64,000 nt of DNA from a virus. Lineage: Duplodnaviria > Caudoviricetes. Below, one piece after another: positions 25,482 through 51,336 of this stretch. Under the pieces are notes generated by a model. It did no database searches. It was not told the origin of the DNA and saw only the letters and a list, made by a program, of their open reading frames with translations. Location: the IMG/VR virus record IMGVR_UViG_3300028914_000071, positions 1-64,000 of that record; one strand, given 5' to 3'. The translations under genes were made by a program, and so were the position numbers. Position 1 is the first letter of the stretch; the number at the start of each line of letters is the position of its first letter.

Positions 25482-25482
25482 A

Positions 25483-26340: not shown

Positions 26341-27165
26341 TGGTAACGTGGGTTGACTATATTCCAAACCGTATTTCGCCCACATTTTTGGGCAATTTCT
26401 TATTTCCTACTGTATTCCCAAAATTAAAGAGAATAATTATTCCCATAACCAAACAATCCCTAGTAAATTCCAAATAATTTCCTGGAAATTCTCACAGTAA
26501 CATTATCTTTTTCTCTCAAATGGAAAATTTTTCCAGAACTGTAAAATTTTACCGTGGACCTTTTTAGGGTTTTTTTCTAAATGTAGATTTTATGTGCCGC
26601 GATTCAAATAAAAAATTTCGTGGCGCGAGATTAGCTGTGAAATTTCTATAAAAATAGTCAAAAATTTTACTAATTCAGTCGTTTTTTTTCTCATTTAAAA
26701 AGTAGAATTCCTTTACCCCTACTCAAAAAATTTTTGTCCGTCTTAGATGTAGCTCCTTTGTAGCTCATATAAGGCGGCTATTTTTATGCCCGGCCGACGC
26801 AGCTCCTTTGCAGCTCCTATAGGGACCCCATAAGCCCGGACCGGGGAGACCCCTACCCCGCCTGCCCGGATGGACGCCGATTTTATGGGGTTGGCGGACG
26901 ACATAGATGCGTGGCTTGGCGGCGCGAAAAAAATGTGGGCGGGATGCAGCTCCTTTGCAGCTCCTATAGAGTACGTAAATACGTGGTGTGGCGGGTGTGT
27001 TGGTAGAAGCATGGAAAAGTGGCAAATTATGGTAGGGTGGATTATTATGGTTGGAATGGAAGATTTTGTTAGAAATGGAAGAATGTGGTAAATTGCCCGG
27101 GCAATTCGCCAAAATTTACCAGTCAGATGGCAAAATAAAACCACTCCCGAAGGAGTGGCAATATT

Positions 27166-27429
27166 TTACATGGTAAGGTCTATTATGTCTTCACCTTCCA
27201 AATCATCCATGTCAGTAATTTCCTCAACGTCAAAACCGCAATCGTAAAGAAAGTTGTCAAAATCATCATCGGTGTAACCTTCTGAATATTCAACATCTAT
27301 ATACTCTGCGGCATAGTCATAAAGTCCTTCTGCCATATAAACGCAAACATCATCTTCACTATTTGCTTTAAAGTAGTATATATTGTCACAACCACAATAG
27401 CCGCAACTATATGTTCCCTTAAAATACAT
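27166..27429 (-). CDS. acidic hypothetical protein
   Basis: ORF before terminator. Confidence 0.8.
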   Translation of the reverse strand: MYFKGTYSCGYCGCDNIYYFKANSEDDVCVYMAEGLYDYAAEYIDVEYSEGYTDDDFDNFLYDCGFDVEEITDMDDLEGEDIIDLTM

Positions 27430-27956
27430 TAGTCCTCATTCCCTTCCTCTTCAATTTCAATACAGAAATCTGATTCCCAAAAACTGAAAGTAAAACAGCC
27501 ACCTTCTACCAAATCCTTACATTTTTCCAGTGCATCTTCAATTTCTTCCGCAACCGCATTGTCAATTTCTGATGCTAAATGACCGCTGTATTCTTCATGG
27601 TCATAATCATCCTCAATCATATCATACCACGGAAGGTCAAATTCATCTCCATTATCTTTACGTGCGCTAATACCGACATTTTGAATAAACCATTCAACCT
27701 TCGTATCACGGTCAACCTCTTTGGAAAGTGCCTGTGCTAACTGCCATAAGGTTGTAAAATAGTTGCCGTCATAGGTATAACCGACATAATGTTCAACATC
27801 AAAAAATCTGCCGCTATAAATGTCTTTACCGTTCATAAAAGCAAGTGTAACATCATTTACAAGTTTGTGAGAGAAAACCTTCCTTAATCCTTCATCTAAC
27901 TTGTCAAGGTTTGAATAAGTTTCAGCGCTACGGTCATTATAAATTACTTTGTACAT
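27429..27956 (-). CDS. acidic hypothetical protein
   Basis: Promoter, leader, SD. Confidence 0.85.
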   Translation of the reverse strand: MYKVIYNDRSAETYSNLDKLDEGLRKVFSHKLVNDVTLAFMNGKDIYSGRFFDVEHYVGYTYDGNYFTTLWQLAQALSKEVDRDTKVEWFIQNVGISARKDNGDEFDLPWYDMIEDDYDHEEYSGHLASEIDNAVAEEIEDALEKCKDLVEGGCFTFSFWESDFCIEIEEEGNED

Positions 27957-28159
27957 AATGGTAATTCCTTTCCGGTTTTTAGAACTTGAACCTGTTCATG
28001 TTTTGTTTTATCTTATGTATATATTATAACATAGAATATAGTGTTTGTCAATAGTTTTTCTAAAAAATTTTTTATGGTATTTAATGGCAAAGTGCCCGGG
28101 CGAAAAGGCAAAAATTACCATTTCTACCATAAAAGGGAACCGCCCCAAAGGGCGGGTAA

Positions 28160-28672
28160 TTAATGGCAAATAATTTTCAAATCGTTATATATTCCTATAT
28201 CTCCCGATGACATTAAGGAAAATTTATACATTACGGAATCAATGTACAAATTAACAAGATTGTCAGAATATTCATAGTTAAAGGTTGCGTGGTCATAATC
28301 TCGCTTTACTATGGTTCTCCAATTTATTCCAAGTGGATTGTCGTTCATATCCTTGGCATAAGTGGTACTTTCAAACCATTCTATTGCCATTTTAAATGTT
28401 AAATCTTGGTCAGTATAAAAAATTGCGTCCGTTAGTTCATCAAGTTCAAAAAGCTGTTCTTCAATACCTTCTATTTCATATTCTTTTACACAGCGTATAG
28501 CAAAGTTATCAAATGTTACTGCATGAGGGCGGTTGATGGTGTTTTCGACAATTTGTTTAGCGATTGCCATATCTTTGTTAGTAAGAAGTTCATTTATTCT
28601 TACTATTGCACCTCTTTTGGTATGTATCTTTTCATCCTCTTTTGTTACATAATTGTTAATTGTAAAATACAT
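28160..28672 (-). CDS. hypothetical protein
   Basis: ATG after GGGAGG. Confidence 0.8.
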   Translation of the reverse strand: MYFTINNYVTKEDEKIHTKRGAIVRINELLTNKDMAIAKQIVENTINRPHAVTFDNFAIRCVKEYEIEGIEEQLFELDELTDAIFYTDQDLTFKMAIEWFESTTYAKDMNDNPLGINWRTIVKRDYDHATFNYEYSDNLVNLYIDSVMYKFSLMSSGDIGIYNDLKIICH

Positions 28673-28674
28673 AA

Positions 28675-29046
28675 TTAGTCCTCCCATATTAAGTTGATGT
28701 GAAAATCATTTATGCCTACTGATGTAATTATCATTTCTTCATGTCTGTTATATGCTCTGTGTAATTCATCTATTAAATAGTTATCAACAAATGCATAAGC
28801 TGTATTGTATATTTCTTCCGAAAGTACGTGATTTTGATGCATAAGAAGTAAATCACCTAAGCGGAAACTACCAAGTATTTTATCTTCGTTGTTAATTTCT
28901 GCGACAAGACAAGGCATAGTAGGGGTTAAATAATACCAAGTTGCTATAATTCCTTCAGCATCACACTGACTTAAAATATAACCCACCATTTCTGTCAATG
29001 AACCTGTTTCAAAGTCATCACACTTAAATTTACAATTCTTTACCAT
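28675..29046 (-). CDS. hypothetical protein
   Basis: Promoter, leader, SD. Confidence 0.85.
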   Translation of the reverse strand: MVKNCKFKCDDFETGSLTEMVGYILSQCDAEGIIATWYYLTPTMPCLVAEINNEDKILGSFRLGDLLLMHQNHVLSEEIYNTAYAFVDNYLIDELHRAYNRHEEMIITSVGINDFHINLIWED

Positions 29047-29240
29047 ATGGTTATCCTTTCCGGTTTTTAGGAGTTATCACCTCTCCATCTATGTTTATAT
29101 TATACCATAGTTTATGATGTTTGTCAAGTGTTTTTCTAAAAAATTTTCGCCGCCAAAATATGGTAAACTGCCCGGGCGTTTCGCCAAAATTTTCCAGTTT
29201 TGGTATATAAAGAAACCGCCCTTTCGGGCGGCATAAATTA

Positions 29241-29633
29241 TCAATAATATCCTTCGAGTTCATCTTCTGACTTTTTGTCTGATATGCATTGACTTATATA
29301 ATATAAAAGACAAGAAAAATTACAATTTTCACTATCAATTGTAAATTTAGTGTCCCTTTTCCATTTAATTCCATTTATAAGTGTTATATTATGGAGAATA
29401 TCCTGTCCTTTGTCAAGGTCGAACATACCAATATCTCTCAAAATGGCATTTTCTTCCTCTAACTGTTCTATTCGCTTTTCTAATTGAATAGTCTTTTTAA
29501 AGAGTGCGGCAAGAACTTCCATTGTTTCCATTTTCTTACCGCTTTTATCATAAAAGCCTTCTTCCCAAAAACTTTTTCCGAGATATTCCATTTCTTCTGA
29601 TTCTATCCAGTCTTCTTCTATTATGCCTTCCAT
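29241..29633 (-). CDS. hypothetical protein
   Basis: ATG after GAGGTG. Confidence 0.8.
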   Translation of the reverse strand: MEGIIEEDWIESEEMEYLGKSFWEEGFYDKSGKKMETMEVLAALFKKTIQLEKRIEQLEEENAILRDIGMFDLDKGQDILHNITLINGIKWKRDTKFTIDSENCNFSCLLYYISQCISDKKSEDELEGYY

Positions 29634-29644
29634 ATTCTCCCACC

Positions 29645-30088
29645 TCACATTCTTAAAATCGCATTGAGTATGTCAAAGATTTCCTTTTCTGAGTATGCAC
29701 CTTTGCCCCATTCTTTTCTAATCTCTTCGTTATCGTCAAAGAGTATGCCTTCGCCTAAAGAGTGTTTAGGCGTGCCGTATGGTACAATAAGGATTTCATC
29801 CCATTCTACAGATGGCATATGTTTCCTGAGCCACTGGAGTTTGGCATCTTTTGTACGTCTGTCAAATTCCGGTGTACTTTCCTTTGAACACCATGAAACG
29901 ATTTTAAGAGTGAAATCTAAATCCTTCTGTAACTTATTGAGAAGTTTGGCAAGTCTTGACAGATTGAGCCTTGCCTTCGCATCTTTATAAGGTCGTACAG
30001 AATAATTTCTTAAATCTTCCAGCCAGCCCTCAACTTCATAAAAATTGTTAAGAGTGCCGTCCATGTCAAATACTATTTCTTTTTCCAT
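29645..30088 (-). CDS. HAD-superfamily nucleotidase-like hydrolase
   Basis: IVFDMDGTL and LFDDN motifs. Confidence 0.8.
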   Translation of the reverse strand: MEKEIVFDMDGTLNNFYEVEGWLEDLRNYSVRPYKDAKARLNLSRLAKLLNKLQKDLDFTLKIVSWCSKESTPEFDRRTKDAKLQWLRKHMPSVEWDEILIVPYGTPKHSLGEGILFDDNEEIRKEWGKGAYSEKEIFDILNAILRM

Positions 30089-30553
30089 AATTTAGTCCTT
30101 TCTTAGTCGATTGCCAAAATTCCGGCAATCATAGTTAAACCTATTAGTATTAAGGCGGTCATTTAATCCCTCCCTTACTGTAATTATATTATACCATATT
30201 TGCGGGCAGTTGTCAATAGTTTTTTAAAAATTTTTTCGCCGCGAAAATATGGTAGATATGGAAATTACTGGAAAAGTGCCCGGGCGTTTCGCCAATTTTT
30301 ACCAATTATGGAATATAAGAAAACCGCCCTTTCGGGCGGCGCTTTTATTCTTCTTCAAAGTCAGTGTCACTTCGCAACTCATTTAGTTCATGCCGTAAAG
30401 ATTCTATTTCTTTTGCCATAAAGTACAAAAGTGTAAACATAGTTTCGGGATTATGCTCTAAGTCATAATAATTTTCAAAAAATTCAAAACGACCATCCAT
30501 TTTTCTTTTCATCCTCTAATTTATCAATTAATTTATTTCTTCTATTCTTCTTA

Positions 30554-30922
30554 TTAACGGTAAAGAACTATAAATTCTTTTGGTGCTAAACCTTTATCAA
30601 ACAGTCTTACTGCCGCAGAAAAAATTTCCTCTTTAATATCAACAACTTTTTCACCATATTCTAACCTTTCGTTACAATAACCCTTATCAATGTAACCTGA
30701 GCGGTCAATATATGCAAAATCTTCACCATCATCGGAGTTAATAAGAACATTTTCAAGATAATGCCTATCCGTAAAGTGTTCAATACCTTTTTCCTCAAAA
30801 AAGTCATCCCAATCAAATATATTACGAGAATCTACATATTTACCATATCCCATTTCTTCCATTACCATAGATTCCCAATACCATATGCCTATAACGGGAT
30901 ATATTTCAAATCTTTTATCCAT
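30554..30922 (-). CDS. hypothetical protein
   Basis: SD AGGAGG. Confidence 0.85.
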   Translation of the reverse strand: MDKRFEIYPVIGIWYWESMVMEEMGYGKYVDSRNIFDWDDFFEEKGIEHFTDRHYLENVLINSDDGEDFAYIDRSGYIDKGYCNERLEYGEKVVDIKEEIFSAAVRLFDKGLAPKEFIVLYR

Positions 30923-30925
30923 AAC

Positions 30926-31165
30926 TTAATCCTCCTTTTTACCACTCTTAAAGAAACTACCAACAACTGCCAAAACAATTGCCCATAATGCCGCCTGTTT
31001 CCACGTCCATACGGCAATAATTCCCAACTTACAGAGTGACCACATAGCAAGTCCCACCATAAGAACTGTACAACCATAAGTAAGAGCAATGACAACTAAA
31101 ATAATTAAGCAACCAATAGCCATTTCTGTTCCAGTCATTTCCTTTTTCTTAAAATCTAATTTCAT
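30926..31165 (-). CDS. small membrane protein
   Basis: Hydrophobic ORF after leader. Confidence 0.8.
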   Translation of the reverse strand: MKLDFKKKEMTGTEMAIGCLIILVVIALTYGCTVLMVGLAMWSLCKLGIIAVWTWKQAALWAIVLAVVGSFFKSGKKED

Positions 31166-31279
31166 AGTAAAATCCTTTCCGGTTTTTAAGACTTATAACC
31201 TGTCTTTATCTTATGTATATATTATAGCACATAATCGCGGCAATGTCAATAGTTATTTTTGTTTTAAATCTTTTATCCA

Positions 31280-31504
31280 TTAAAAATCTTTTCCTTTCTT
31301 CCAAAGAATTGGCGAACCTAAGCCGGCACTTTGTATCATACAGTTATATTTTTCACTAACTGTATCATAGCAAGGACAATCGCCACAATCTTCCCAAGGA
31401 CCAAACTTACACATTAAATGCAAATTACGTTTTAAAATTTTAATCTGCTCCTGTAATTGTAAAATCGTTTCTGAATTAGCTTTCATAGGCACATCAGTTA
31501 TCAT
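31280..31504 (-). CDS. Cys-rich small protein
   Basis: CGDCPC motif; own promoter and leader. Confidence 0.8.
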   Translation of the reverse strand: MITDVPMKANSETILQLQEQIKILKRNLHLMCKFGPWEDCGDCPCYDTVSEKYNCMIQSAGLGSPILWKKGKDF

Positions 31505-31712
31505 GGTTAATTCCTTTCCGGTTTTATAGAGTTATAACCTCTCTTTATCTTATGTATATATTATAACATAGTTTTGCGGTAATGTCAATACCTTTTTAAA
31601 AAATTTTTTCTGCCATTAAATGCCAAAATGCCCGGGCGTTTCGCCAAAATTTTCCAGTTCTACCATAAAAATGGGGGCGGTAGCCTTCTTCCGAAAACTA
31701 CCGCCTTTACCA

Positions 31713-32438
31713 TTAAAATGGCAACCATCTTTGGTATCCAGTTTCTTCCACATATTGCTGGAATTTTTTCCAAGCACAAATGCACGACCATTCCTGTTTT
31801 TTACCAGATTTGAGAACCCATAACAAAATTTCATATTCTATCATAACATCGGCAAGTCCTGTATGTTCTTCCTCAAAATTGGCATATGCTTCGCCCTTCA
31901 AATATCGGTACACTATTTCAGCACCGTACTTATAATTACCTTTTTCTGACAAATAACCATGACGGTCACAAAATTCCAAATAGGAAGGATTTAACAGTCG
32001 AGTCTTTACTACTGCCGCCATGATGTCACGAATTTCCAGTCCTAACATTTCATACCTTGCACCAAATAACCTACTAAGTGCGGCATTATCGAAGGCAACG
32101 TTATAAGCATACATCTTTTTAATGTTGTACTTCTGAATATCAGATGTAAATAATATCCAAAAACTCTCAATGCTTATACATCTGTACTTCCTGTTTTTAG
32201 CAGAATTCTCATAATCCTCTAAAATATCTTTTGTGTTCTTTAAGTGCATTTCTTTACACAGACCAGTTTCGAGGGAATTTAACAGATTCTGCCAAACTGC
32301 ATAAGGTAATGCAATTGACCTTTTTTCGTAAATATTGCCGGCATTATCTGCCACAATATAACCAATATTGTACGGCAGACAAGTGGAATTTCCTTCCACG
32401 TCTAATACTATAAATTTTTCCTTTTTTCTTCCACGCAT
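31713..32438 (-). CDS. DEDDh 3'-5' exonuclease
   Basis: VLDVEG (ExoI), AYNVAFD (ExoII), HTGLAD (ExoIII). Confidence 0.82.
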   Translation of the reverse strand: MRGRKKEKFIVLDVEGNSTCLPYNIGYIVADNAGNIYEKRSIALPYAVWQNLLNSLETGLCKEMHLKNTKDILEDYENSAKNRKYRCISIESFWILFTSDIQKYNIKKMYAYNVAFDNAALSRLFGARYEMLGLEIRDIMAAVVKTRLLNPSYLEFCDRHGYLSEKGNYKYGAEIVYRYLKGEAYANFEEEHTGLADVMIEYEILLWVLKSGKKQEWSCICAWKKFQQYVEETGYQRWLPF

Positions 32439-32653
32439 TTTTTGGTATTCCTTTCCGGTTTTAACGACTTGTAACCTGTCGATTTATTATGTATATATTA
32501 TATCACATTTTGCGGCACTTGTCAAGAGATTTTTAAAAATATTATTTTTCCATAATTGGAAAATGCTGGAAAAGTGCCCGGGCATTTTGCCAAAATTTTC
32601 CAGTTTTGGATAAAAATAAAAGAGGGCTGAACCGAAGTTCAACCCTCGCTGGA

Positions 32654-33079
32654 TTAATTTGTCTTAGCTTCCTTTTTTGCCTTCGCCGCCGCTTTTTCCT
32701 TTTCTACCTTTTCTTTGTTCTTTTTGGCTTTTTCTTCCTTTTCCTTAGCTTCCTTCTCGTCTTCCTCTACCTTTTTCTGCCATACGCTACCCTCATATTC
32801 CCTGTCATATTCTGTAAAATACTTTTTGTTTGTCTGTCTGTCCTTATAGTCCTTGACAGTAGGGGAGAATGTTACGCACGCTTCAACGGTAAATCCTTCC
32901 TTTGTTTCAATTGTGAGAACAGCTACAGCTACCTCAGACTTGCCAACGATGGTAACATTTTCCTCACCGTACTTAGCCTTCATAGCTTCAACAACACTGT
33001 CAAAAGCTTCCACTCTGATAGCTTCCTTGATTTCACTGAGTTTGAAGTCCTTTTCCTTGATAGTTCTAAGTTCTGTCAT
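32654..33079 (-). CDS. hypothetical protein with Lys/Glu-rich tail
   Basis: Promoter, leader, terminator. Confidence 0.85.
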   Translation of the reverse strand: MTELRTIKEKDFKLSEIKEAIRVEAFDSVVEAMKAKYGEENVTIVGKSEVAVAVLTIETKEGFTVEACVTFSPTVKDYKDRQTNKKYFTEYDREYEGSVWQKKVEEDEKEAKEKEEKAKKNKEKVEKEKAAAKAKKEAKTN

Positions 33080-33329
33080 TTTAATTACTTCCTTCCGGTT
33101 TTAACGTCTTTACCTGACAATAATGATAATATGGTTTTTAGGTGTTTTCTTCCCTTCACCTTATGTATATATTATAGCACAACTTTGTGCTATTGTCAAT
33201 AGTTTTAGAAAAATTTTTTAAAAAAGTTTTTTATGGTAGAAATGGAAAAATCTGGAAAAGCGCCCGGGCGATTCGCCATAATTTTCCAGTAATGGTATAA
33301 AAGGAAACCGCCCCAAAGGGCGGCATAGA

Positions 33330-33536
33330 TTAATTATCGTATAAATCAAGTGCTTCAAGACTTGCTACATCACAATTATCATCAAGATACTCATATAGTT
33401 CTTTTTCTGTGCTTCCTGTATATGATTCACCTGTCAAATCTGCAATTGTTGACAAAACGTCTTTAAGTGCGGAGGAATATTCAGTGTATGCACAAGTGGA
33501 ACAACCCATAACGTTTACTATGTATATTTCTTTCAT
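33330..33536 (-). CDS. hypothetical protein
   Basis: ATG after AAGGAG. Confidence 0.75.
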   Translation of the reverse strand: MKEIYIVNVMGCSTCAYTEYSSALKDVLSTIADLTGESYTGSTEKELYEYLDDNCDVASLEALDLYDN

Positions 33537-33537
33537 T

Positions 33538-33933: not shown

Positions 33934-33937
33934 ACTA

Positions 33938-34153: not shown

Positions 34154-34347
34154 GGTTAAAAGTCCTTCCGGTTTTATAGAGTTATAACCTCTCTTTATCT
34201 TATGTATATATTATACCATATTTGCGGCGAGTTGTCAAGGGGTTGACGAAAAATTTTTTATGGTATTTTATGGCAAAATGCCCGGGCACTTTGGAAGATT
34301 TTGGTAATAATGGGATAAAGAGAAACCACCCCGAAGGGTGGCATAAG

Positions 34348-34905: not shown

Positions 34906-35097
34906 AATGGTATTCCTTTCCGGTTTTTAGGACTTATCACCTGTCCTTATGTTTATATTATATCATATTTCGCCGCACTTGTCAACTCTTTTCTAAAATT
35001 TTTTTATTTCCATATTCTACCAAAACGCCCGGGCGAAACGCCAAATTTTACCAATTTTACCACAATAGGAAAGCCGCCCATTTCTGAGCGGCAGTTT

Positions 35098-35463: not shown

Positions 35464-35476
35464 GGTAATTTCCTCC

Positions 35477-36016: not shown

Positions 36017-36245
36017 AGTTAAAATTCCTTCCGGTTTTATAGACTTGTTACCTGTCTTTGTGTTTTGTTTTATCTTATGTATATATTATAGCATAGAATA
36101 AGGTACTTGTCAATAGTTTTTCTAAAATTTTTTAAAAATATTTTTATGGTAAAAACGGAAAAAGATGGAAAATCGCCCGGGCGTTTCGCCATAATTTACC
36201 ATTTATGGAATATGAAAATGCCGCCCATTTCTGAGCGGCACATTT

Positions 36246-36979: not shown

Positions 36980-37192
36980 ATTGGTATTCCTTTCCGGTTT
37001 TTAGGACTTATCACCTGTCCTTTACTGTAATTATATTATACCATACTTTGCGGCACTTGTCAACACTTTTCTGAAAAAATTTTTTGGTAGTTTATGGCAA
37101 ATTGCCCGGGCGTTTTGGAAAAATTTTCCAGTTCTACCATAATAAGAAAACCGCCCTCTTTCGAGAGCGGCTTCCAGTTTTTGCCGTGTTTA

Positions 37193-37513: not shown

Positions 37514-37780
37514 AATTTTTCTACCTTTCCGTTTTAACGTCTTGAACGTGACAATGAATATAAATAATGAATGATTTAAGGTTTTAGGTTTTTGTTTCCC
37601 TCAACCTTATGTATATATTATAGCATAGATTTATTAGAATGTCAATAGTTTTTCTAAAAAAATTTAAAAATTATTTTATGGTATAATTGGAAAAATTTGG
37701 CAAAGTGCCCGGGCATTTTGGTAGAAATTGCCATCTCAATGGTAAATGGAAAAGCCGCCCATTTCTGAGCGACTTTAGTT

Positions 37781-37930: not shown

Positions 37931-37932
37931 AA

Positions 37933-38421: not shown

Positions 38422-38752
38422 ATTGGTAATTCCTTTCCGGTTTTAACGACTTGAACCTGTCGATAGTAAATTAGTTTTCTTAGGGTTTAGGTCGTTTCCC
38501 TTACCCTGTAATTATATTATATCATATAGGGGCGCATTTGTCAATAGTTTTTTTAAAATTTTTTAAAAATTATTTTATGGTAAATATGGAAGGATTTGGC
38601 AAAGCGCCCGGGCATTTTGGTAGAAATTACCATTTATGGATAAAAAAGAATGGACGGTATAAACCGTCCAAACTTTTAAGAAACAACCTACGGAGGTATG
38701 AAAATATTGGGATGGGACTTTTTGGTGGGAAATCCCTCAGAAACCCATAAGA

Positions 38753-39250: not shown

Positions 39251-39519
39251 GGTAATTAGTCCTTCCGGTTTTATAGTCTTGTTACCTGACTTTAGAATTA
39301 TTGTTTACTTAGGGCTTAGGTCGTTTCCCTTACCCTGTAATTATATTATAGCACATCTTAGTCTGTTTGTCAACACTTTTTTAAAAGTTTTTAAAAAATT
39401 TTTTTTCGCGGCGAAATATGGAAGAATTACCATTTTCTGGAAAACCGCCCGGGCGATTTGGTAAAATTTACCAATTCTACTATACAAAAGTGCCGCCCAT
39501 TTCTGAGCGGCAAAAAGTC

Positions 39520-39972: not shown

Positions 39973-40315
39973 AGTAAAATCCTTTCCGGTTTTTAAGACT
40001 TATAACCTGTCTTTATCTTATGTATATATTATAGCATATCATAGCTCATTTGTCAAGCGTTTTTAAAAAATTTTTTCGCAGGATAGCTAATGGATGTAGC
40101 TCCCAGCTCTGCTCGTAGCTCCCATATATTCCATATATTCCCAGACTGCCATGATATGGGAGAGATGTAAGAATTTGGCGGCGAAATCAAGAATTGGAGA
40201 AATTGGTAAAATCTGGAAAATCGCCCGGGCATTTTTCCACAATTTTCCAGTAATACCATAAAAGGAAAACCGCCCATTTCTGAGCGGTCTTCCAAATGGA
40301 GGTATATATGGTCAA

Positions 40316-40648: not shown

Positions 40649-40838
40649 AAAATCAAGTCCTTTCAAGTGGTTGTTTCCTTTACCCTGTAATTATATTATA
40701 TCACAACGGGGTGTAAAAGTCAATAGTTTTTTAAAAATTTTTTTATTGGATTTTTATGTAAATTTGCCCGGGCACTTTGCCAAAATTTTCCAGTAATGGT
40801 AATAAAAAGGTGCCGCCCATTTCTGAGCGGCAAAATGA

Positions 40839-41450: not shown

Positions 41451-41709
41451 AATCTTTAGTCCTTTCTGAATTGAGGTTGTTTCGTAAGGTGTTTCCCTTA
41501 CCCTGTAATTATATTATAGCACACTTTGCGGCGGTTGTCAACACTTTTTTAAAAGTTTTTAAAAAATTATTTTATGGTATATTTACCATTTTCTGGAAAA
41601 ACGCCCGGGCACTTTGCCAAAATTTTCCAGTAATGGTACAAAAGGAAAGTGCGGCAATTTCTCACCGCACTTCCAGTTTTATGGAAACAACCTTAGGAGT
41701 TAGATAATA

Positions 41710-42123: not shown

Positions 42124-42323
42124 AGTTTACAATTAGTTGTTGTTCTTTTCGTTTAGGGTTTTCTCTTACCCTGTAATTATATTATAGCACACTTTGCGGC
42201 GGTTGTCAACACTTTTTAAAAATTTTTTTATTGGATTTTTATGGAAAATCGCCCGGGCACTTTTCCAAAATTTACCATTTTTGGAATAAACGAAAAGAGC
42301 GGCAATAAATGCCGCCCAGTTTT

Positions 42324-42972: not shown

Positions 42973-43138
42973 ATTAGTAACCTCCTTTACTATATTTATT
43001 ATACCATAGTTTTGCGGCAATGTCAACACCTTTTTAAAAATTTTTATTTGGTAGTTTATGGAAAATCGCCCGGGCGAATTGGTAAAAAATGGTAATTATG
43101 GTATAAAATAATGAGCGGCTCGAAAGCCGCCCAAAATT

Positions 43139-43384: not shown

Positions 43385-43399
43385 GTTAAATACCTCTCT

Positions 43400-43588
43400 T
43401 TACTTATTTAATACTTCTTCTGCGTATTCCATTTCCTGACAGAAAATGCCGTATTCTGTTTCAAAATTATAATCCCACTTTACGTTAGCATCGAGTAAAT
43501 CATCCTTGTGACAACCGAATAATCTAACACATTCTTCCTCACTCAGGTTTTCACCGAGTAAAACCATAAATTCCTCTCTTGTTGGCAT
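43400..43588 (-). CDS. acidic hypothetical protein
   Basis: Promoter, SD. Confidence 0.75.
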   Translation of the reverse strand: MPTREEFMVLLGENLSEEECVRLFGCHKDDLLDANVKWDYNFETEYGIFCQEMEYAEEVLNK

Positions 43589-43830
43589 AATAAACCATTC
43601 CTTTCTACTATCGGGTTGTTTCTTTCCCCTTACCCTGTAATTATATTATACCATACTGACGGGTATTTGTCAACACTTTTTTAAAAATTTTTTATGGTAG
43701 GGTTGGAAATAGTTGGAAAATCGCCCGGGCAATTTGGTAAAACTTTCCAATTTTGCGGCAAAGAAAAAGGCTGGACTTTCGCCCAACCTTTTCCATTATA
43801 GAAACAACCTTGGAGGTGTGAAAATATCAA

Positions 43831-43929
43831 TTAACCAAACAGAATGTTAACTACTAAGATAATTAATCCTGTAAGTCCGGCACTCTGAGCAAATGCCTTT
43901 ACGTCAACAAAACTTCTATAATTCTTCAT
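43831..43929 (-). CDS. small membrane peptide (32 aa)
   Basis: ATG after AAGGAG; hydrophobic C-half. Confidence 0.5.
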   Translation of the reverse strand: MKNYRSFVDVKAFAQSAGLTGLIILVVNILFG

Positions 43930-43944
43930 TTCTAAAACTCCTTA

Positions 43945-44190
43945 TTACTTTAATTTAAACTGTGTAGTAAAAACTTCTCCGCACTCGTTACATCTATATA
44001 ACATAGTGCTGTCACCTCTAACCTCTATACATTTCCAATTGCCGCCACAACCTGTACAAATACCGTGGTTATATTTGGCAGTATCTTCCTTGTACTGACT
44101 ATAATCACCTACGAGAATTGCGGCAAGTACGCCAACAATTGCCAGTGATACTATTACCTCAATTACTGTTACACCCTTAAAATTTTTCAT
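43945..44190 (-). CDS. prepilin-like N-terminus fused to a Zn-ribbon
   Basis: KG|VTVIEVIVSLAIVGVLAAIL; CTGC...CNEC. Confidence 0.7.
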   Translation of the reverse strand: MKNFKGVTVIEVIVSLAIVGVLAAILVGDYSQYKEDTAKYNHGICTGCGGNWKCIEVRGDSTMLYRCNECGEVFTTQFKLK

Positions 44191-44398
44191 AAAATCAAGT
44201 CCTTTCTAATTGGTTGTTTCCCTTACCCTGTAATTATATTATACCATATAGGCGGTCATTTGTCAAGCACTTTTTAAAAAAATTTTTTATGGATTTTATT
44301 GGAAAAATGCCCGGGCGATTTTCCATAATTTACCATTTATACCACAAAAAAAGTGGCGGTACGAATACCGCCAAAGTTCTACCATATTTTTCTATTTA

Positions 44399-44828: not shown

Positions 44829-45102
44829 TGCTATCACCTCCGTTTCTATATATATTATAGCATACTATAGCTCATTTGTCAAGCGTTTTTGAAAAAATTT
44901 TTGCGGCAAACGTAGCTCCCTAGTCGTTCCATATTTACCATATTTTTCCGCCTGGACAATTTTGTAATATCTGGAAAACTGCCATACTATTTGGAAGAAA
45001 CTGGAAAATTGCCCGGGCACTTTTCCAAAAAATGGAAATTATGGGACAAACGGAAAACCGCCCACAATTGTGGACGGTCTTCCAAAATGAGGTATATATG
45101 GA

Positions 45103-45399
45103 TTATTTGATAATTTCATAAATTTTATTGTCAACCTGATAAAGTGTACCATCAATGGTACGATATACCACTGGATTATCCTCGTCATCAGTGTTATAGA
45201 ATGAGCAATCAGACTTGATGCCGCAAGCACTGAGGAGCATGAAAAACGTATGATATGAACATTTATAACCACTATCAAGGCAAAGCCACAGATAGAATGG
45301 AACGCCAGCCTTGATAAATCCCATAATTGTTTCCCAGTTTTTGCGAGTAAGAATAAGGTTGATAAGTTCACCGTTGAGTGTGTTGATAAAAGTAATCAT
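45103..45399 (-). CDS. hypothetical protein
   Basis: SD AGGAGG. Confidence 0.8.
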   Translation of the reverse strand: MITFINTLNGELINLILTRKNWETIMGFIKAGVPFYLWLCLDSGYKCSYHTFFMLLSACGIKSDCSFYNTDDEDNPVVYRTIDGTLYQVDNKIYEIIK

Positions 45400-45779
45400 A
45401 ATAAAATTCCTCCTAATAAATGGTTGTTGTTTCTTCTTAGTGGTCTTATCTCTTCCACTGTTATTATTATACCATAGTTCAATTCATTTGTCAACGCTTT
45501 TAGCTCACAAAAAATATGTGTTGAATTTGTGCAGGATGCACAGCTCCTTAGTCGTTCCATATTTACCAGCTTATCCCAGCTCCTTTATTGTTATATATTG
45601 GAAAAATGCCGTGCAAGCTGGTAAAAACTGGAAAATTGCCCGGGCCTCTTACTACAATATACCAATGGCATAAACTGGAAAAATGCCCGGGCATTTTTCC
45701 AAAATCTTCCATTTTTGGGGCGTGCGGAAGGGCTTCCACCTTTTGGCAGAAGCCCCTCTTTTATGGGAGAGATGGGAGA

Positions 45780-46211
45780 TTATTCCCACTCTCCTAATTC
45801 GTTACACTTTTTCCATGATTCGTAATCGGAGTAAAAATGTTCCATTTTCTTGTATCGTTCTACAATTCTGTCACATTCTGTCTTAACTTCCTCGAAATTA
45901 CCAATCACATTAAAAATTGGATTAACTTCAACTAAATTGTACTTATACCAACATTCACTCCATATTCCAGTAATTGGGTGATAACCCATTTCTTCGGAAA
46001 CCCTTGACAATTTTGTCTCAATTCTGCTATTAACTGCCATGTCTACCGGAACTTCCTCAATTTCCAGATAGAAGCCGTCCATGGTGGCTGTGGTAATCAT
46101 GTCACGGATAACCTCATCCGGCGTATCCTGACTGATTTCCCATCTCTTACCAACCTGAGTTTCCATTTTCTTCGCACCAATAACTGCTAATAAAACTACC
46201 ATTTTCTGCAT
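45780..46211 (-). CDS. hypothetical protein (paralogue of 47197-47631)
   Basis: Shared GIWSECWY / GMWSECWY and YESWKK. Confidence 0.82.
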   Translation of the reverse strand: MQKMVVLLAVIGAKKMETQVGKRWEISQDTPDEVIRDMITTATMDGFYLEIEEVPVDMAVNSRIETKLSRVSEEMGYHPITGIWSECWYKYNLVEVNPIFNVIGNFEEVKTECDRIVERYKKMEHFYSDYESWKKCNELGEWE

Positions 46212-46364
46212 AATAATTACCTCCATAGATATACCATTTGTTTCCTGTGAGGGTTCTTATCTCCCTCAACCTTATGTATACATTATACTGCTGCAATGTG
46301 ATAGAATTATGATAGTTTGGTGAAAACTGTGTGAAAACATATTTTACCATTATCAAATCTTGCG

Positions 46365-46475
46365 GTTAAATATTGTTACATTTTGCGCCGTCATATTGAC
46401 GTTAAATATTGTTACATTTTGCGCCGTCATATTGACGTTAAATATTGTTACATAATATCATCGTCATTTTGACGA
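46365..46475. repeat. 36-bp tandem repeat (2.4 copies) with CGTCA-N3-TGACG palindromes
   Basis: GTTAAATATTGTTACATTTTGCGCCGTCATATTGAC at 46365 and 46401, partial at 46437. Confidence 0.9.
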
Positions 46476-46614
46476 AACATTTACTACCATGATTACCAAA
46501 ATATGGAAAACTGCCCGGGCATTTTGGTATAATATGGTAATAATGGGGTATAAAGTAAGGGCGACCGAAATCGCCCAAACTTAGGAAACAACCTATCAAA
46601 TTAACTACACTTTA

Positions 46615-46824
46615 TCAAACATGGAGGAATTTGTAAAGTGTATCCAAAATGTCGTTTATTTCTCTTTTGTTGACAAACGGGGAAATAGTTTCCAGACCAC
46701 CCTGTTCACAAACACGGCAAAGTCTGACACTACCGTTGGCATATTCTAACTTATAATTTTTGCCAGTTTTTCTGGAAATGTTTGCCACCTTAACATCTAA
46801 TATCATTTTTGTTACTCTTGCCAT
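46615..46824 (-). CDS. basic hypothetical protein
   Basis: Promoter, SD. Confidence 0.78.
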   Translation of the reverse strand: MARVTKMILDVKVANISRKTGKNYKLEYANGSVRLCRVCEQGGLETISPFVNKREINDILDTLYKFLHV

Positions 46825-47196
46825 AATATACCTCTTTCCGAGCGTTACGCTCTTTGTTTCTATGATTATATTATACCACGGATTGCGGCGAAAGTCAAGT
46901 AAAAAAATCAGTGTTGAATTTGTGCATATTGCACAGCTCCCTAATCATCCATTTTTACCATAATTTACCATCCAGTCGTAGCTCCTTTTCCTTCCATATT
47001 TACCATATTTTACCACCAAAATATTTTTAACATATATTGGAAAACTGCCATACAAGTTGGTATAATATGGAAATTTGCCCGGGCATTTTTCCAGTATTTA
47101 CCATTTCGATGGCGCATGGGATTATATGGTAACTGAGTGAAATTTTAGTGGAACTCCCACCTTTTGGTAGGAGCCCCACATTTTGGGGAATTTGGA

Positions 47197-47631
47197 TTAT
47201 TCTTCCTCTTCACCCTCTCTATGGATTTTCTTCCATGATTCGTAAGTATGGTATTCATTTTCCATTTCTTTGATTAAATCGGTAAGTCTGTCAATTTCTG
47301 ACTGTACATCCGACACATCACCAATCAGACCAAGTTTTTCATCAACTACCACAAGATTGTTTTCATACCAACATTCGCTCCACATACCAGTTACTGGGCG
47401 GAAACCCATTTCTGTGGCAACTGCTGACATTAAATCTATAATGCGGTAACCAATGGTAAAGTCGCAAGGAATTTCCTCAACATCCAGAAAATAACCAGCC
47501 TGGGCAGCACTGGAAATCATGTCCTTAATATCCTTAATTGGAGTTTCAAGGGTGATTTCCCAAGTATTGACAGCCTGAGTTTCCTGTCCCTTTGCGCAAA
47601 GAATAGCCAGTGTGATTACAAATTTTTCCAT
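47197..47631 (-). CDS. hypothetical protein
   Basis: SD AGGAGG. Confidence 0.82.
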   Translation of the reverse strand: MEKFVITLAILCAKGQETQAVNTWEITLETPIKDIKDMISSAAQAGYFLDVEEIPCDFTIGYRIIDLMSAVATEMGFRPVTGMWSECWYENNLVVVDEKLGLIGDVSDVQSEIDRLTDLIKEMENEYHTYESWKKIHREGEEEE

Positions 47632-48176
47632 AATAATGTCCTCCTAAAAATTGGGTTTGGGTTGTTTCTTCTTAGTGGTCTTATCTCTTCCACTGTTATT
47701 ATTATACCATATCCCGCCGCAGATGTCAAGTAAAAAAAACAGTGTTGAAACTGTGCAATATGCACAAAGTCAGGAAATCACAGTTCTCTCATATTTTTCC
47801 ATGTTGTGGTTTTACAGTTTTCCCAGCTTCTCCCATTGTAAAATTTCCCCTATTTCTGACATAAAAACCCAGCTCCATCTTCTTCCTTTTTTAACAAATT
47901 TTACCATCGGAACGTAGCTCCCTGTTCGTTCCATATATACCAAAATTTTCCACCGAAAGACATTTGTTATATTATGACATATATTATACGATTTGTCAGA
48001 CCTGTAAAAATCTGGAAAATCGCCCGGGCATTTTTCCATATATTTCCAAATTGCCCGTGCATTTTACCATATTTTTCCATGGAAAATTTTTCCTCGCTCG
48101 GCAATTTGTTATATTTTACCAATTCTATAATACCAGAAAATGGAAGCCTTGCTTTTGACAAGACTTCCAAATTTTA

Positions 48177-48374: not shown

Positions 48375-48441
48375 ATATACCATTCCTTTCTAATTTATGG
48401 GCGGAACTCCCATTTCTGAGAGTTCCCTTCCCAATTACCAC

Positions 48442-48822: not shown

Positions 48823-48999
48823 AATTATAGACCTCCTATTGGTAGTTGTTTCCTTGAGGAGTTTACCTCCTCCTTACATTATCTATTATACACCATTACA
48901 AGGGATTTGTCAACACTTTTACCTACCAAAGATTACGGGTATATTTTGTTTAAAATGCACAAAGAGTTTTCAACACAAGTTATTATCATTTTTACAAAA

Positions 49000-49155
49000 A
49001 TTTTCCTTACCATTTTTCTTACATTTATTGTATAAATTTCCCTTACCATTTTTCTTACATTTATTGTATAAATTTTCCACGGTACTGTTTTTACTTTTAT
49101 GTAAAATTTTTCCACGGTACTTTATTTTACATTTTTGTCAAAAGTTTCCACGGTG
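49000..49155. repeat. tandem 36-bp repeat and TTCCACGGT x3
   Basis: CCTTACCATTTTTCTTACATTTATTGTATAAATTT twice. Confidence 0.8.
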
Positions 49156-49476
49156 ACTGCCATTGGCAACGGATTAACATTTTTACCAAAATCTGGAAAA
49201 TCGCCCGGGCAACTTTCCATATATTACCAAAAGATTTATTTTACCATTTCGCGGCAAGATTGTAAAAATTTTACAAATAAACATTTTTCTCCATTATTAT
49301 TTAATTATAATAATTATAACATAATCTTTTATAATTGTAAATATCTTCATTTTAATACCATAAAATGTTTTCACATAACTTTCACAAAACTATCACATTT
49401 CTATCACATAAGAATAGTATAATAAAGACAATGAAAACAACAACCCACTCGGGCAATTTGGAAAGGAATGGTATTT

Positions 49477-49938
49477 ATGAATATCTACAAAGAAATGGAA
49501 AAAAATGAGTATCTGGCAAGATATAGAAAACTTGTCTATACTAAGCATCAAATCTATGGTTTTCCTTTTGAGGGAAATATTTACACCTATTTTACTGAAG
49601 ATGAATATTTTGACTACTATCTTAACACAAACTCCGAAACTAAAACAAAAACTCTTGACTGGCGACCAACTAAGAAGTCAATCAACAGAATGTTAGAAAA
49701 AGCGACAATTCTTTGTACTGAAGAAGAATTTAAAGCAAAATATTGCTATAGTAACAACGGAAGAACATTAGAACGCTTACTGTATGAAAAGTTACTTAAT
49801 CAGACTTATGTTCCTGATACAATACGATTTGACCAAGGCGCAGACATTACGATAGATAATGTACCATATAGTGTAAAATATCTTCGTGGTAGACTATCTG
49901 ATGAAAAAACTATAGAAACTGCAGAAAATGACAAATAA
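49477..49938 (+). CDS. possible PD-(D/E)XK nuclease-like protein
   Basis: NNGRTLE...GADITID...YSVKY; own promoter and terminator; lone + strand gene. Confidence 0.5.
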   Translation: MNIYKEMEKNEYLARYRKLVYTKHQIYGFPFEGNIYTYFTEDEYFDYYLNTNSETKTKTLDWRPTKKSINRMLEKATILCTEEEFKAKYCYSNNGRTLERLLYEKLLNQTYVPDTIRFDQGADITIDNVPYSVKYLRGRLSDEKTIETAENDK

Positions 49939-50168
49939 TTTAACTTCTCGTCGCCAAGAGATTGGCGGCGACCTTTTTATGTTATAACTGTTATATTATG
50001 GTAATCGCGGCGAAATTACCAAAAACCTTAACTATTTACTTTTTTGGAAATGTATGGTATAATAATTACAGAAAGTAAAAAATACCAAAGTAATGCTGCT
50101 GTAGGAAAATTTTCCAAAAATAGACAGCTTACATATTTTTCCATTTTTGGAAAATTTTTCCACCATTT

Positions 50169-50420
50169 GCAGCTCCCATCTTCTTCCATAATTACCAAAT
50201 TTTACCAGTGGAATGTAGCTCCCATCTTCTTCTATAAATGGTAAAATTTGGCAAACGCAGCTCCCATCTTCTTCCATAAATGGAAAATTTTACCACCGGA
50301 ACGTAGCTCCCATCTTCTTCCATAAATGGTAAAATTTGGAAGCGCAGCTCCCATATCCTTACATATATGGAAAATTATGGCAAACGCAGCTCCTAGAACC
50401 TTCCATTTATGGAAAATTCT
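50169..50420. repeat. six 41-46-bp direct repeats G(C/T)AGCTCCCATCTTCTTCCATAAATGG
   Basis: Direct inspection; last two copies degenerate. Confidence 0.88.
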
Positions 50421-50730
50421 GGAGGAAACTGGAAAAATCTGGAAAATCGCCCGGGCAATTTTCCAAGATTTTCCATGGTAAATACTGGAAAATTGCCCGA
50501 CCCGGAAAATTTTTCCATGGAAGAAATTGGAAAATATGTCAGAATTTTCCATGGTAAATTTTACCAAAAAATGTGAAAAATTTACAGAGCTGGAAAAATT
50601 TTCCATAACTGTCAAAAACTGGAAAAATAATGAATAATTTTCCATTGGAAAATTTTTACAGAAAATGTCAGAATTTTCCATGGAAAAATCCGGCAGAAAA
50701 TGGTAAATTTTTCCATGGAAAAGGCTGGAA

Positions 50731-51283: not shown

Positions 51284-51336
51284 GGGCATTTAAAAACGGA
51301 TTTAAAAATATATCAGTAATCAGAAAAAGATAAATA

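What the first reader, a model, noticed from the sequence alone, without database searches (positions are those of the whole stretch)
27095..50460. 23-kb cassette-like array: self-contained gene units separated by about 29 GCCCGGGC-centred palindromic linkers
Seen: a repeated unit of TTGACA-N17-TATAAT promoter, 1-3 small genes, a GC hairpin terminator and a 100-150 bp linker. Each linker has TGG(A/T/C)AAA and TTT(T/A/G)CCA boxes arranged symmetrically about GCCCGGGC (e.g. TGGAAAAATGCCCGGGCGATTTTCCA at 44.3 kb). Spacing is mostly 0.5-1.2 kb, and I saw no copy outside this region. Cargo includes paralogues, membrane peptides, and pilin-like and dockerin-like genes. Inference, three options: (a) recombination sites of an integron-like or accordion system that shuffles host-takeover genes; (b) a centromere-like or nucleoprotein array; (c) staged DNA-entry or insulator signals. 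No recombinase is visible in this window.
Basis: partly seen in the sequence, partly recalled or inferred. Interest (0 to 1): 0.88.

Follow-up and report, generated by a model that had tools for sequence, protein, structure and literature searches.

The report
Phage early-gene cassettes with dyad linkers
A 23-kb block of a large rumen phage holds about 28 small early-gene units, each ending in the same terminator, palindrome and perfect promoter linker; relatives show the units are shuffled at these linkers, much as in T4-type phages, but the palindrome itself is a new, unexplained control element.

Summary
There are 29 exact GCCCGGGC copies in window 27095-50456 and none elsewhere in the 77.5-kb contig (0.11 expected by chance). 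The genes lie on the minus strand.

Each linker reads:
- a rho-independent terminator, then about 38 nt;
- TGGnA-N5-TGGnA, the GCCCGGGC core, then TnCCA-N5-TnCCA;
- an A/T tract;
- a perfect TTGACA-N17-TATAAT promoter with TG.

The core-to-promoter distance falls in steps of about 10 bp.

Three relatives carry the same array: two complete ~180-kb genomes and one fragment. Cassettes are lost, duplicated, replaced and reordered between them, while the flanks stay collinear. Crossovers fall inside linkers at several positions: the core, an arm, or the terminator. The complete relative encodes no integrase, resolvase, RecA, ParB or AbrB.

Best reading: these are PeSL-like regulatory cassettes of a host-takeover-type early region, shuffled by homologous recombination between linkers. 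They carry an added dyad that looks like a protein-binding operator. Its boxes match the published AbrB bipartite TGGNA motif, but the binding protein is unknown. An integron-like mechanism is not supported.

One relative has GGCCGGCC cores in its divergent blocks. The same scan noted this stretch once more (e1-5889980). I rate it a new variant of a known kind.

The parts
27095..50456 (-). Array of about 28 early-gene cassettes (1-4 small ORFs each, nearly all without a known family) separated by 29 dyad linkers
33171..33324 (-). Representative complete linker: terminator 33324-33307, TGGnA boxes, core 33269-33262, TnCCA boxes, A/T tract, -35 at 33199, -10 ending at 33171
27095..27102 (.). Dyad core GCCCGGGC, the last one downstream; followed by a promoter-less run of TnCCA boxes
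28094..28101 (.). dyad core
29170..29177 (.). dyad core
30278..30285 (.). dyad core
31630..31637 (.). dyad core
32576..32583 (.). dyad core
33262..33269 (.). dyad core
34280..34287 (.). dyad core
35027..35034 (.). dyad core
36175..36182 (.). Dyad core; the crossover of junction J1 against relative G002 maps to about 13 bp containing it
37104..37111 (.). dyad core (second parent of junction J1)
37707..37714 (.). dyad core
38606..38613 (.). dyad core
39447..39454 (.). dyad core
40223..40230 (.). dyad core; promoter displaced by an inserted GGAGCTRC module
40766..40773 (.). dyad core
41603..41610 (.). dyad core
42251..42258 (.). dyad core
43068..43075 (.). dyad core
43723..43730 (.). dyad core
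45011..45018 (.). dyad core; promoter displaced by a GGAGCTRC module
45638..45645 (.). Dyad core with box-like sequence on its plus-strand left (promoter) side only; 47 bp from the next core
45685..45692 (.). dyad core (its inner arms are a perfect palindrome)
46513..46520 (.). dyad core
47077..47084 (.). dyad core
48022..48029 (.). dyad core
49203..49210 (.). dyad core
50449..50456 (.). Dyad core, the first one upstream, inside the repeat hub
26756..26971 (-). Cluster of five GGAGCTRC motifs just beyond the downstream end of the array
50169..50400 (-). Six GGAGCTRC repeats spaced 41-46 bp apart at the upstream end of the array
50050..50950 (.). Non-coding hub dense in TGGNA/TNCCA boxes (22 bipartite motifs in 900 bp) and AATTGAACT repeats; it differs between relatives
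49477..49938 (+). P0001, 153 aa; the only plus-strand gene in the array; paralogue of P0002
51788..52312 (-). P0002, 174 aa; same family as P0001; lies on the other side of the hub

Best explanation
The array is the early, host-takeover-type region of a ~180-kb phage from the rumen. Its host is probably a low-GC Firmicute.

What each linker does:
- It is a composite regulatory cassette. An intrinsic terminator ends the upstream unit.
- A fixed 38 nt later comes a dyad of four phased TGGnA/TnCCA boxes around the invariant 8-bp core GCCCGGGC.
- An A/T-rich UP-like tract and a perfect extended -10 sigma-A promoter then start the next unit.
- So the host RNA polymerase expresses about 25 independent small operons immediately after infection.

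The dyad (inferred): it is most likely an operator or nucleation site for an oligomeric DNA-binding protein. That protein binds on one face of the helix upstream of every early promoter and, in this genome, at high density in the neighbouring origin-like hub. It would switch all early operons together, through shut-off or host-state gating, probably with DNA bending. The protein is unidentified. The boxes match the AbrB-type bipartite TGGNA motif.

Recombination (shown by comparison): the ~150-200-bp linkers are 70-80% alike, so they also serve as portable homology. Recombination between them deletes, duplicates, replaces and moves whole cassettes. This keeps each gene attached to its own promoter and terminator, as PeSL elements do in T4-type phages.
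For: Architecture and chance:
- Searches give the layout and the chance expectation.
- The terminator-to-core distance is 37-40 nt.
- The core-to-(-35) distance falls in classes 40-42, 48-51, 60-62 and 71-73 nt, i.e. whole helical turns.

The dyad as a binding site:
- In a logo of 138 unique linkers from W, G001-G003 and three further metagenome loci, T, G, G and A of each box are near-invariant and the 4th base is free.
- Boxes occupy fixed positions (-19, -9, +12, +22) in 86-100% of 112 unique linkers from the four genomes, in either orientation.
- This equals the published AbrB high-affinity consensus: bipartite TGGNA with a 4-5 bp AT-rich spacer, in any orientation (PMC3738160).
- Bipartite motifs number 115 in the array, 22 in the hub and 10 in the other 53 kb. 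About 4 are expected in the array.
- The core is identical in 29, 31 and 29 copies of W, G001 and G003, genomes only 72-85% identical.
- Arms are not self-complementary in single copies. That fits protein recognition rather than a hairpin.

Shuffling:
- Blocks 97% identical alternate with replaced blocks in G002.
- Crossovers map inside linkers.
- Linker-to-linker identity is 68-82% over 150-260 bp.

Cargo: almost all gene products have no known family.

Precedents:
- PeSL elements (PMC2839356, PMC4122927).
- The SPO1 host-takeover module (PMC6873191).
- phi29, a lytic phage that carries host Spo0A sites at its early promoters and origins (PMC2731898).
Against: - No binding protein is identified. 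The complete relative has no AbrB/MazE, ParB, integrase, resolvase or RecA match.
- The MAG in which one relative was binned has no AbrB/MazE hit either. That bin is incomplete and the host link is weak.
- Perfect consensus promoters with UP-like tracts need no activator.
- A site centred near -80 to -110 does not overlap RNA polymerase, so simple occlusion is unlikely.
- G002 carries both GCCCGGGC and GGCCGGCC/GGCCGGTC cores in one array. This is awkward for a strictly core-specific protein.
- The TGGNA-dense hub is weak or absent in relatives: 9-11 bipartite motifs in G001 and G003, 2 in G002.
- A wedge-model calculation predicts an intrinsic bend peaking at the core (parameters recalled from memory). 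Part of the conservation could therefore be structural rather than protein-specific.
Confidence: 0.6

Rival explanations
1. Programmed, core-directed recombination: 'an integron without an integrase'. A sequence-specific nuclease or recombinase cuts or pairs the GSCCGGSC core, and repair moves cassettes. The paralogues P0001/P0002 that flank the hub would be the enzyme.
For: - One crossover (J1) maps to about 13 bp containing the core. J5 and J6 lie within 20-40 bp of it.
- Hybrid cores GCCCGGCC occur in G002 and G003. A core at 45638 has box-like sequence on one side only, and closely spaced core pairs occur (45638/45685 in W; 6661/6692 in G001).
- The P0001 family has invariant G95, E99, D123 and K134 in an alpha-beta-beta-beta layout.
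- There are weak HMM hits to DUF4143. I recall this as a PD-(D/E)XK clan member.
- Language-model features lie near type II endonucleases ThaI (0.90) and SmaI (0.88). SmaI cuts CCCGGG, the centre of the core (from my own knowledge).
Against: - Other crossovers lie in the terminator or at its edge.
- P0001 has no HMM match to SmaI and no fold match in the PDB.
- The complete relative has no N4/N6 or C5 methyltransferase to protect 30 own sites.
- G002 has the array but lacks P0001.
- A P0001 homologue sits in another phage's early array where only one of 15 promoter-upstream regions holds a GCCCGGGC and no TGGNA dyad is seen.
- There is no tyrosine or serine recombinase.
- The dyads do not fold like attC sites.
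Confidence: 0.1
2. There is no dedicated protein. The dyad is intrinsically curved DNA: phased A-tracts and T-tracts around a GC core that bends the opposite way. This wraps upstream DNA around RNA polymerase and boosts the early promoters.
For: - Box periodicity is about 10 bp, and the core-to-promoter distance is quantised in helical turns.
- The wedge model predicts about 30 degrees per 41 bp at the core, against a mean of 14.6.
Against: - Curvature does not need an exact 8-mer, yet the core is invariant. Its only variants are near-palindromes that keep CCGG.
- The conserved letters are T, G, G and A of each box rather than the A-tract length.
- Boxes work in either orientation at the same position.
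- The curvature parameters were recalled from memory.
Confidence: 0.15
3. Insulator or entry ratchet. A protein bound at each dyad blocks read-through polymerases or supercoil diffusion between very strong tandem units. Alternatively, the co-oriented promoter-terminator relay pulls the genome into the cell from the hub end.
For: - The dyad sits at a fixed distance just behind every terminator.
- All units point the same way, away from the hub.
- Both ends of the array carry special repeat clusters.
Against: Nothing in the sequence requires this reading.
Confidence: 0.1
4. Centromere-like or membrane-tethering array bound by a host ParB/Noc-type protein.
For: The core shares CCCGGG with the Bacillus Noc-binding site ATTTCCCGGGAAAT, as I recall it. 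There are many sites spread over 23 kb.
Against: - The phage has no ParB_N domain.
- The flanks of the core differ from the Noc site.
- The only bacterial record with more than two pattern hits was the phage contig itself.
- The host is unknown.
Confidence: 0.04

Closest known systems
PeSL (promoter-early stem-loop) mobile regulatory cassettes of T4-type phages (Arbiol et al. 2010, PMC2839356; Comeau et al. 2014, PMC4122927)
   Same: - A composite of a terminator stem-loop and a consensus early promoter is repeated between small genes of unknown family in a hyperplastic region.
- Related phages differ by insertion, deletion and replacement of units bounded by these elements.
- Crossovers occur at varying points inside the element, consistent with homologous recombination.
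   Different: - The phage lineage and host differ: a large TAG-recoded phage of a probable Firmicute, not a T4-like myovirus of Gram-negative bacteria.
- There is one contiguous 23-kb array of 29-31 elements rather than scattered clusters.
- An extra ~50-bp dyad with an invariant 8-bp GC palindrome and phased TGGNA boxes lies between terminator and promoter. PeSLs lack this.
- Mini-circles were not tested here.
Host-takeover module of Bacillus phage SPO1 (PMC6873191 and Stewart et al. 1998, cited there)
   Same: A block of small early genes arranged in many short operons, each with a strong sigma-A promoter and ribosome-binding site. Most products are of unknown function and are presumed to subvert the host.
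   Different: - About twice as long, with more operons.
- No detectable protein homology.
- SPO1's module lies in the terminal redundancy; the ends of this phage are unknown.
- No conserved dyad is described in what I read about SPO1.
Host-regulator and histone-like protein sites in phage phi29 (Spo0A boxes, parS, p6; PMC2731898)
   Same: A lytic Firmicute phage carries arrays of short binding sites both at its early promoters and at its replication origins. One DNA-binding protein can thereby gate early transcription and replication together.
   Different: - The motifs differ (TGTCGAA in phi29, TGGNA plus GCCCGGGC here).
- phi29 has a few sites, not about 30 identical modules.
- Binding is shown for phi29 and only inferred here.
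AbrB binding sites of Bacillus subtilis (Chumsakul et al. 2013, PMC3738160)
   Same: Bipartite TGGNA with a 4-5 bp AT-rich spacer, in direct or inverted orientation, with several motifs in a row over 27-80 bp.
   Different: - No AbrB-domain protein was found in the phage or in the putative host bin.
- AbrB sites have no GC core.
- The motif has low information content, so the match is a lead only.
Integron cassette arrays (attC sites and the IntI integrase)
   Same: A tandem array of small, mostly unknown genes separated by imperfect palindromic repeats, with cassette content varying between relatives.
   Different: - No integrase is encoded.
- Each cassette has its own promoter and terminator.
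- Crossovers are not at one fixed point.
- The repeats do not fold as attC hairpins.

Membership tests
PeSL-type mobile regulatory cassette | Composite element: a terminator stem-loop next to a consensus early sigma-70-type promoter | tested here: met
   definition from PMC2839356
PeSL-type mobile regulatory cassette | Repeated in a hyperplastic region between small genes of unknown family | tested here: met
   Of 30 array and hub-flanking proteins scanned (26 from the array), only N_methyl, NT5C and a few unnamed PHROGs were hit. 26 of 73 protein families occur in one genome only.
PeSL-type mobile regulatory cassette | Relatives differ by indels or replacements bounded by the elements, with crossovers inside them | tested here: met
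PeSL-type mobile regulatory cassette | Excised mini-circles carrying one chimeric element | not testable with these tools
Integron | IntI tyrosine recombinase encoded next to the array | tested here: not met
   No Phage_integrase match in the window's contig or in the complete relative G001; no resolvase either.
Integron | Promoterless cassettes read from one common promoter | tested here: not met
   22 perfect promoters and about 22 terminators, one pair per cassette.
Integron | attC sites that fold as single-stranded hairpins, with crossover at one fixed position | tested here: not met
   Arms are 13/22 complementary, mean folding energy is about -6.5 kcal/mol, and the best fold is often not the dyad. 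Crossovers fall at the core, an arm and the terminator.
ParB/parS or Noc/NBS array | ParB-family (ParB_N) protein available | tested here: not met
   No match in G000, G001 or G002. The host was not testable.
ParB/parS or Noc/NBS array | 16-bp palindrome matching parS or NBS | not tested
   Only the central CCCGGG is shared with the NBS as I recall it. No model of the site was run.
AbrB-type operator | Bipartite TGGNA with a 4-5 bp AT-rich spacer, any orientation, often multiple | tested here: met
   compared with the definition in PMC3738160
AbrB-type operator | A protein with the AbrB/SpoVT swapped-hairpin domain present in phage or host | tested here: inconclusive
   None in the phage genomes. 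None in MAG G003, but that bin is incomplete and its link to the phage rests on binning only.
AbrB-type operator | Demonstrated binding | not testable with these tools
   Needs EMSA or footprinting.
SPO1-type host-takeover module | Cluster of small early genes in many operons with strong sigma-A promoters | tested here: met
   description in PMC6873191
SPO1-type host-takeover module | Location in the long terminal redundancy | not testable with these tools
   No read depth or read starts were available. G001's 127-bp end repeat looks like an assembly overlap.
PD-(D/E)XK / type II restriction endonuclease (for P0001/P0002) | Recognisable nuclease fold or family match | tested here: inconclusive
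   E...D...(S/Q)xK motif. AF2 model at pLDDT 96. Best PDB match Z 3.4. No Pfam hit to SmaI. Only language-model leads at 0.88-0.90.

The most novel reading that the evidence does not exclude
The dyads are loading sites of one sequence-specific protein that coats the whole 23-kb early region and the hub as a master switch for about 25 consensus promoters. In addition, the GSCCGGSC core is a programmed break or crossover point cut by the SmaI-like paralogues P0001/P0002. The phage would then carry a self-shuffling library of host-takeover genes whose core sequence co-evolves between lineages (GCCCGGGC versus GGCCGGCC).
Probability: 0.1. Interest if true: 0.9.

Novelty: new variant of a known kind. 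Interest (0 to 1): 0.6.

Why it matters
If the reading holds, modular shuffling through promoter-terminator cassettes is not limited to T4-type phages of Gram-negative hosts. It would also be a general way for large phages of Firmicutes to exchange host-takeover genes while keeping each gene expressible.

The added dyad gives a clean handle on how such a phage controls some 25 perfect promoters at once. It is a short, invariant, easily mutated element that can be used directly as bait to fish out its binding protein.

The two core variants in one natural mosaic genome offer a ready-made specificity test.

The array is also a compact catalogue of about 45 early proteins per genome, nearly all without a known family. 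At least 73 families occur across the four genomes, and these proteins probably act on a rumen bacterium.

Tried and rejected
Relatives and literature
- Close phage relatives in GenBank: none found by DNA search. The nearest capsid-like protein is 35-47% identical.
- Phass-1: its first 50 kb shows no such array.
- A full-text search for GCCCGGGC returned only primers.

P0001 family
- Foldseek against the PDB gave nothing below E 0.08.
- VIA-align wide gave a best Z of 3.4.
- A profile search against PDB sequences found nothing.
- Pfam at E up to 10 gave no restriction-enzyme family apart from a weak DUF4143 hit.
- The SmaI HMM found no match in either genome.

Family searches in the phage genomes, all empty
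- Methyltransferases PF01555 and PF00145.
- ParB_N, AbrB/MazE, integrase, resolvase and RecA.

Other attempts
- AbrB/MazE in the putative host bin: empty.
- The palindrome TTTCGCSGCGAAA and the GCCGCAAA in promoter spacers are not specific to the array. I dropped them as part of the element.
- The Spo0A-box likeness (TGNCGAA) holds for at most 16 of 138 inner boxes, those with G at that position. I dropped it.
- A first arm-asymmetry score was too lenient and told nothing.
- A bacterial host regulon with the same extended motif: the only bacterial record with more than two hits was the phage contig itself.

Full report
**1. Observation**

GCCCGGGC occurs 29 times in the window, all between 27095 and 50456. 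Dinucleotide-preserving shuffles give 0.11. The whole 77,508-bp contig has no further copy, and 29 of its 30 CCCGGG sites are these cores.

Reading all 29 sites on the minus strand shows one repeated layout:
- a G+C-rich hairpin with a T run;
- two or three TGG(A/T)AAA-type boxes;
- the core;
- two to four TTTnCCA-type boxes;
- an A/T tract;
- TTGACA-N17-TATAAT;
- a conserved leader of two types;
- 1-4 small ORFs.

The scan tool independently lists 22 perfect 12/12 promoters, every one with TG before the -10 and every one on the minus strand. It also lists 39 terminator-like sites against 12.7 expected.

About ten linkers at the right end and at 27095 and 40223 have no promoter close to the core. 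At least five of them (40223, 45011, 45638/45685, 47077) still have a consensus or near-consensus promoter 130-170 bp away, behind an inserted module that carries GGAGCTRC.

**2. What the genome is**

The window carries 23 tRNA genes, an Rnl1-type RNA ligase, a Ro/TROVE protein, a Dda/Pif1-type helicase and a portal-like protein. Its capsid-like protein is nearest to gut phage Phass-1 ('Caudoviricetes code 15 clade'), to 140-kb Enterococcus phages and to Tsamsa-like Bacillus phages.

Pattern scans found relatives with the same linkers:
- G001 is a complete 180,579-bp record with 31 cores in one array.
- G002 is a 47.9-kb fragment, 97-99% identical in shared blocks.
- G003 is a 180,054-bp contig binned into a yak-rumen 'Eubacterium sp.' MAG, with 29 GCCCGGGC cores plus one GCCCGGCC.
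- Several shorter metagenome contigs also carry them.

The feature is therefore real and conserved in a clade of rumen phages. The 1.7-Mb MAG has a single GSCCGGSC outside the phage contig.

**3. Anatomy of the linker**

Distances:
- From the end of the terminator stem to the core is 37-40 nt wherever a perfect stem was found.
- From the core to the -35 the distance falls into classes of 40-42, 48-51, 60-62 and 71-73 nt. These are steps of one helical turn, made by adding further boxes.

Box composition and position:
- The logo was built from 138 unique linkers of W, G001-G003 and three further metagenome loci. In each box T, G, G and the fifth-position A are near-invariant, while the fourth base is free.
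- Boxes start at -19, -9, +12 and +22 relative to the core start in 98, 93, about 100 and 86% of 112 unique linkers. The pentamer can be TGGnA or TnCCA at the same place.

The element is thus [TGGnA-N5-TGGnA]-N4-GCCCGGGC-N4-[TnCCA-N5-TnCCA].

Individual copies are only 13/22 self-complementary. They fold weakly as single strands, often not as the dyad hairpin. The symmetry is that of a binding-site consensus, not of a conserved hairpin.

A wedge-model calculation predicts a bend peaking at the core. The parameters were recalled from memory, so I give this little weight.

**4. Comparison of cassette content**

I called ORFs in the four arrays and clustered them. The flanks are collinear at 82-85% identity. 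Inside the array:
- cassette [13 14 15] is absent from G003;
- cassette [24] sits in different places in different genomes;
- W has [17 18][19 20][17] where the other three have [17 18][17][17][19 20] (G002 with an extra cassette [62] between the two [17] copies);
- [5 6] and the cassette with gene 9 are in opposite order in G001, and fused in G003;
- families 17 and 18 have 2-3 copies;
- 26 of 73 families occur in one genome only.

Some changes lie inside a cassette, for example gene 3 replaced by gene 45 next to the conserved gene 4.

In G002, blocks 97% identical to the window alternate with blocks of 67-92% identity.

**5. Where the crossovers are**

With the near-identical pair W/G002:
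- Junction J1 switches from one parental linker to the other between position -1 and +5 of the core, about 13 bp.
- J5 and J6 switch 20-40 bp to the promoter side of the core.
- J4 switches in the terminator.
- J7 is an insertion in a leader.

The loss of [13 14 15] in G003 switches at the outer edge of the terminator.

Linkers cross-match at 68-82% over 150-260 bp. That gives enough homology for recombination.

**6. A second core**

In G002 the divergent blocks carry GGCCGGCC (about nine copies) or GGCCGGTC (about five copies, read on either strand), with one hybrid GCCCGGCC. The flanking boxes are unchanged.
- The central CCGG never varies.
- The change at positions 2 and 7 is symmetrical.
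- No other record with several GGCCGGCC-type linkers was found.

This argues that the core is selected as a palindrome and evolves in concert within a lineage. It also shows that two core types can coexist in one genome.

**7. Candidate trans-acting factors**

The complete relative has no ParB_N, AbrB/MazE, tyrosine or serine recombinase, RecA, or N4/N6 or C5 DNA methyltransferase.

The box pattern equals the published AbrB consensus (PMC3738160). Bipartite motifs number 115 in the array and 22 in the 900-bp hub, against 10 in the remaining 53 kb. However, the putative host bin gave no AbrB-domain hit, and the hub is box-poor in relatives.

My checks on them:
- I confirm they are paralogues (hhalign probability 97.7%).
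- They belong to a family of about 150-aa phage proteins with invariant G, E, D and K.
- The AlphaFold model is confident (pLDDT 96) but matches no solved fold.
- A language-model search places the family near the type II endonucleases ThaI and SmaI at 0.88-0.90. This is a lead only.
- HMMs do not support it.
- G002 lacks the gene.
- A homologue lies in another phage's early array. Only one of its 15 promoter-upstream regions holds a GCCCGGGC, and no TGGNA dyad is seen.

**8. Interpretation**

Shown:
- The architecture, its conservation, its restriction to the array, the quantised geometry, and cassette-level variation with breakpoints in the linkers.

Inferred:
- The array is the immediate-early, host-takeover-type region. 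This rests on perfect sigma-A promoters, small genes of unknown family, and the analogy with SPO1 (PMC6873191).
- The linkers act like PeSLs, both as regulatory units and as portable homology (PMC2839356, PMC4122927).
- The dyad is a protein-binding operator or nucleation site acting on one helical face. The analogy is with phi29, where host and phage DNA-binding proteins have sites at early promoters and at origins (PMC2731898).

Not supported: an integron-like mechanism or a ParB centromere.

Not testable here: physical genome ends, transcription, circles, and binding.

**9. Verdict**

This is a new variant of a known kind: PeSL-like cassettes in a new phage lineage, with an added, unexplained and highly conserved dyad. 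I score interest at 0.6.

Noticed in passing
window 25600-26350: About 750 bp of non-coding low-complexity DNA between the helicase gene and the array. Runs of CTA trinucleotides alternate with ATATA tracts and a repeated CGCAC(A/T)ATAT word. The G003 contig is broken near this point. It could be a physical genome end or the boundary of a long terminal repeat.
   Followed up: partly
window 26756-26971, 40103-40122, 44919-47921, 50176-50393 (minus strand): The motif (G)GGAGCT(A/G)C was found on the minus strand only (21 copies, 19 of them in or beside the array). It clusters at both ends of the array and in the linkers whose promoter is displaced. Its function is unknown.
   Followed up: partly
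window 50050-51400: Origin-like non-coding hub: TGGAAAATTTTCCA palindromes, AATTGAACT repeats, an AT-rich stretch and long inverted repeats. It is largely different in G001 and G003, and replaced in G002.
   Followed up: partly
window 49477-49938 (+) and 51788-52312 (-): Paralogous ~150-aa proteins of a phage family with invariant G, E, D and K. The AlphaFold model is very confident, yet there is no match to any solved fold or Pfam family. This may be a new fold or a very divergent nuclease.
   Followed up: yes
window 27966-44300, leaders downstream of each -10: Two conserved 5' leader types follow the promoters: ATATATACATAAGATAAAG... with a small hairpin, and ATATAATTACAGGGTAAGGGAA.... Another first-stage note flagged the first type as a possible cis-regulatory RNA.
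   Followed up: no
window 32516-43018, promoter spacers: About eight of the perfect promoters carry GCCGCAAA in the spacer just after the -35. This could be a half-operator, but the word is not specific to the array.
   Followed up: partly
G002 (L113/L114) 14032-26555: Alternative linker cores GGCCGGCC and GGCCGGTC and a hybrid GCCCGGCC, confined to the blocks that are divergent from the window. These are signs of recombination with an unsampled sister lineage.
   Followed up: yes
window 52655-63797; L246; OQ749652.1: There are signs that this phage group reads TAG as an amino acid. A P0001 homologue translates only with TAG=Q, and the nearest named phage is filed in the 'code 15 clade'. This agrees with another first-stage note on in-frame TAGs in the late genes.
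   Followed up: no
window 43945-44190 (-): An 81-aa early protein with a type IV prepilin N-terminal methylation motif (PF07963, E 2.4e-6) and a weak C-terminal zinc-finger-like match.
   Followed up: partly
window 454-16166: An RNA ligase, 23 tRNA genes and a Ro/TROVE protein lie together upstream of the array. Other first-stage notes describe Y-RNA-like and large non-coding RNAs there.
   Followed up: no
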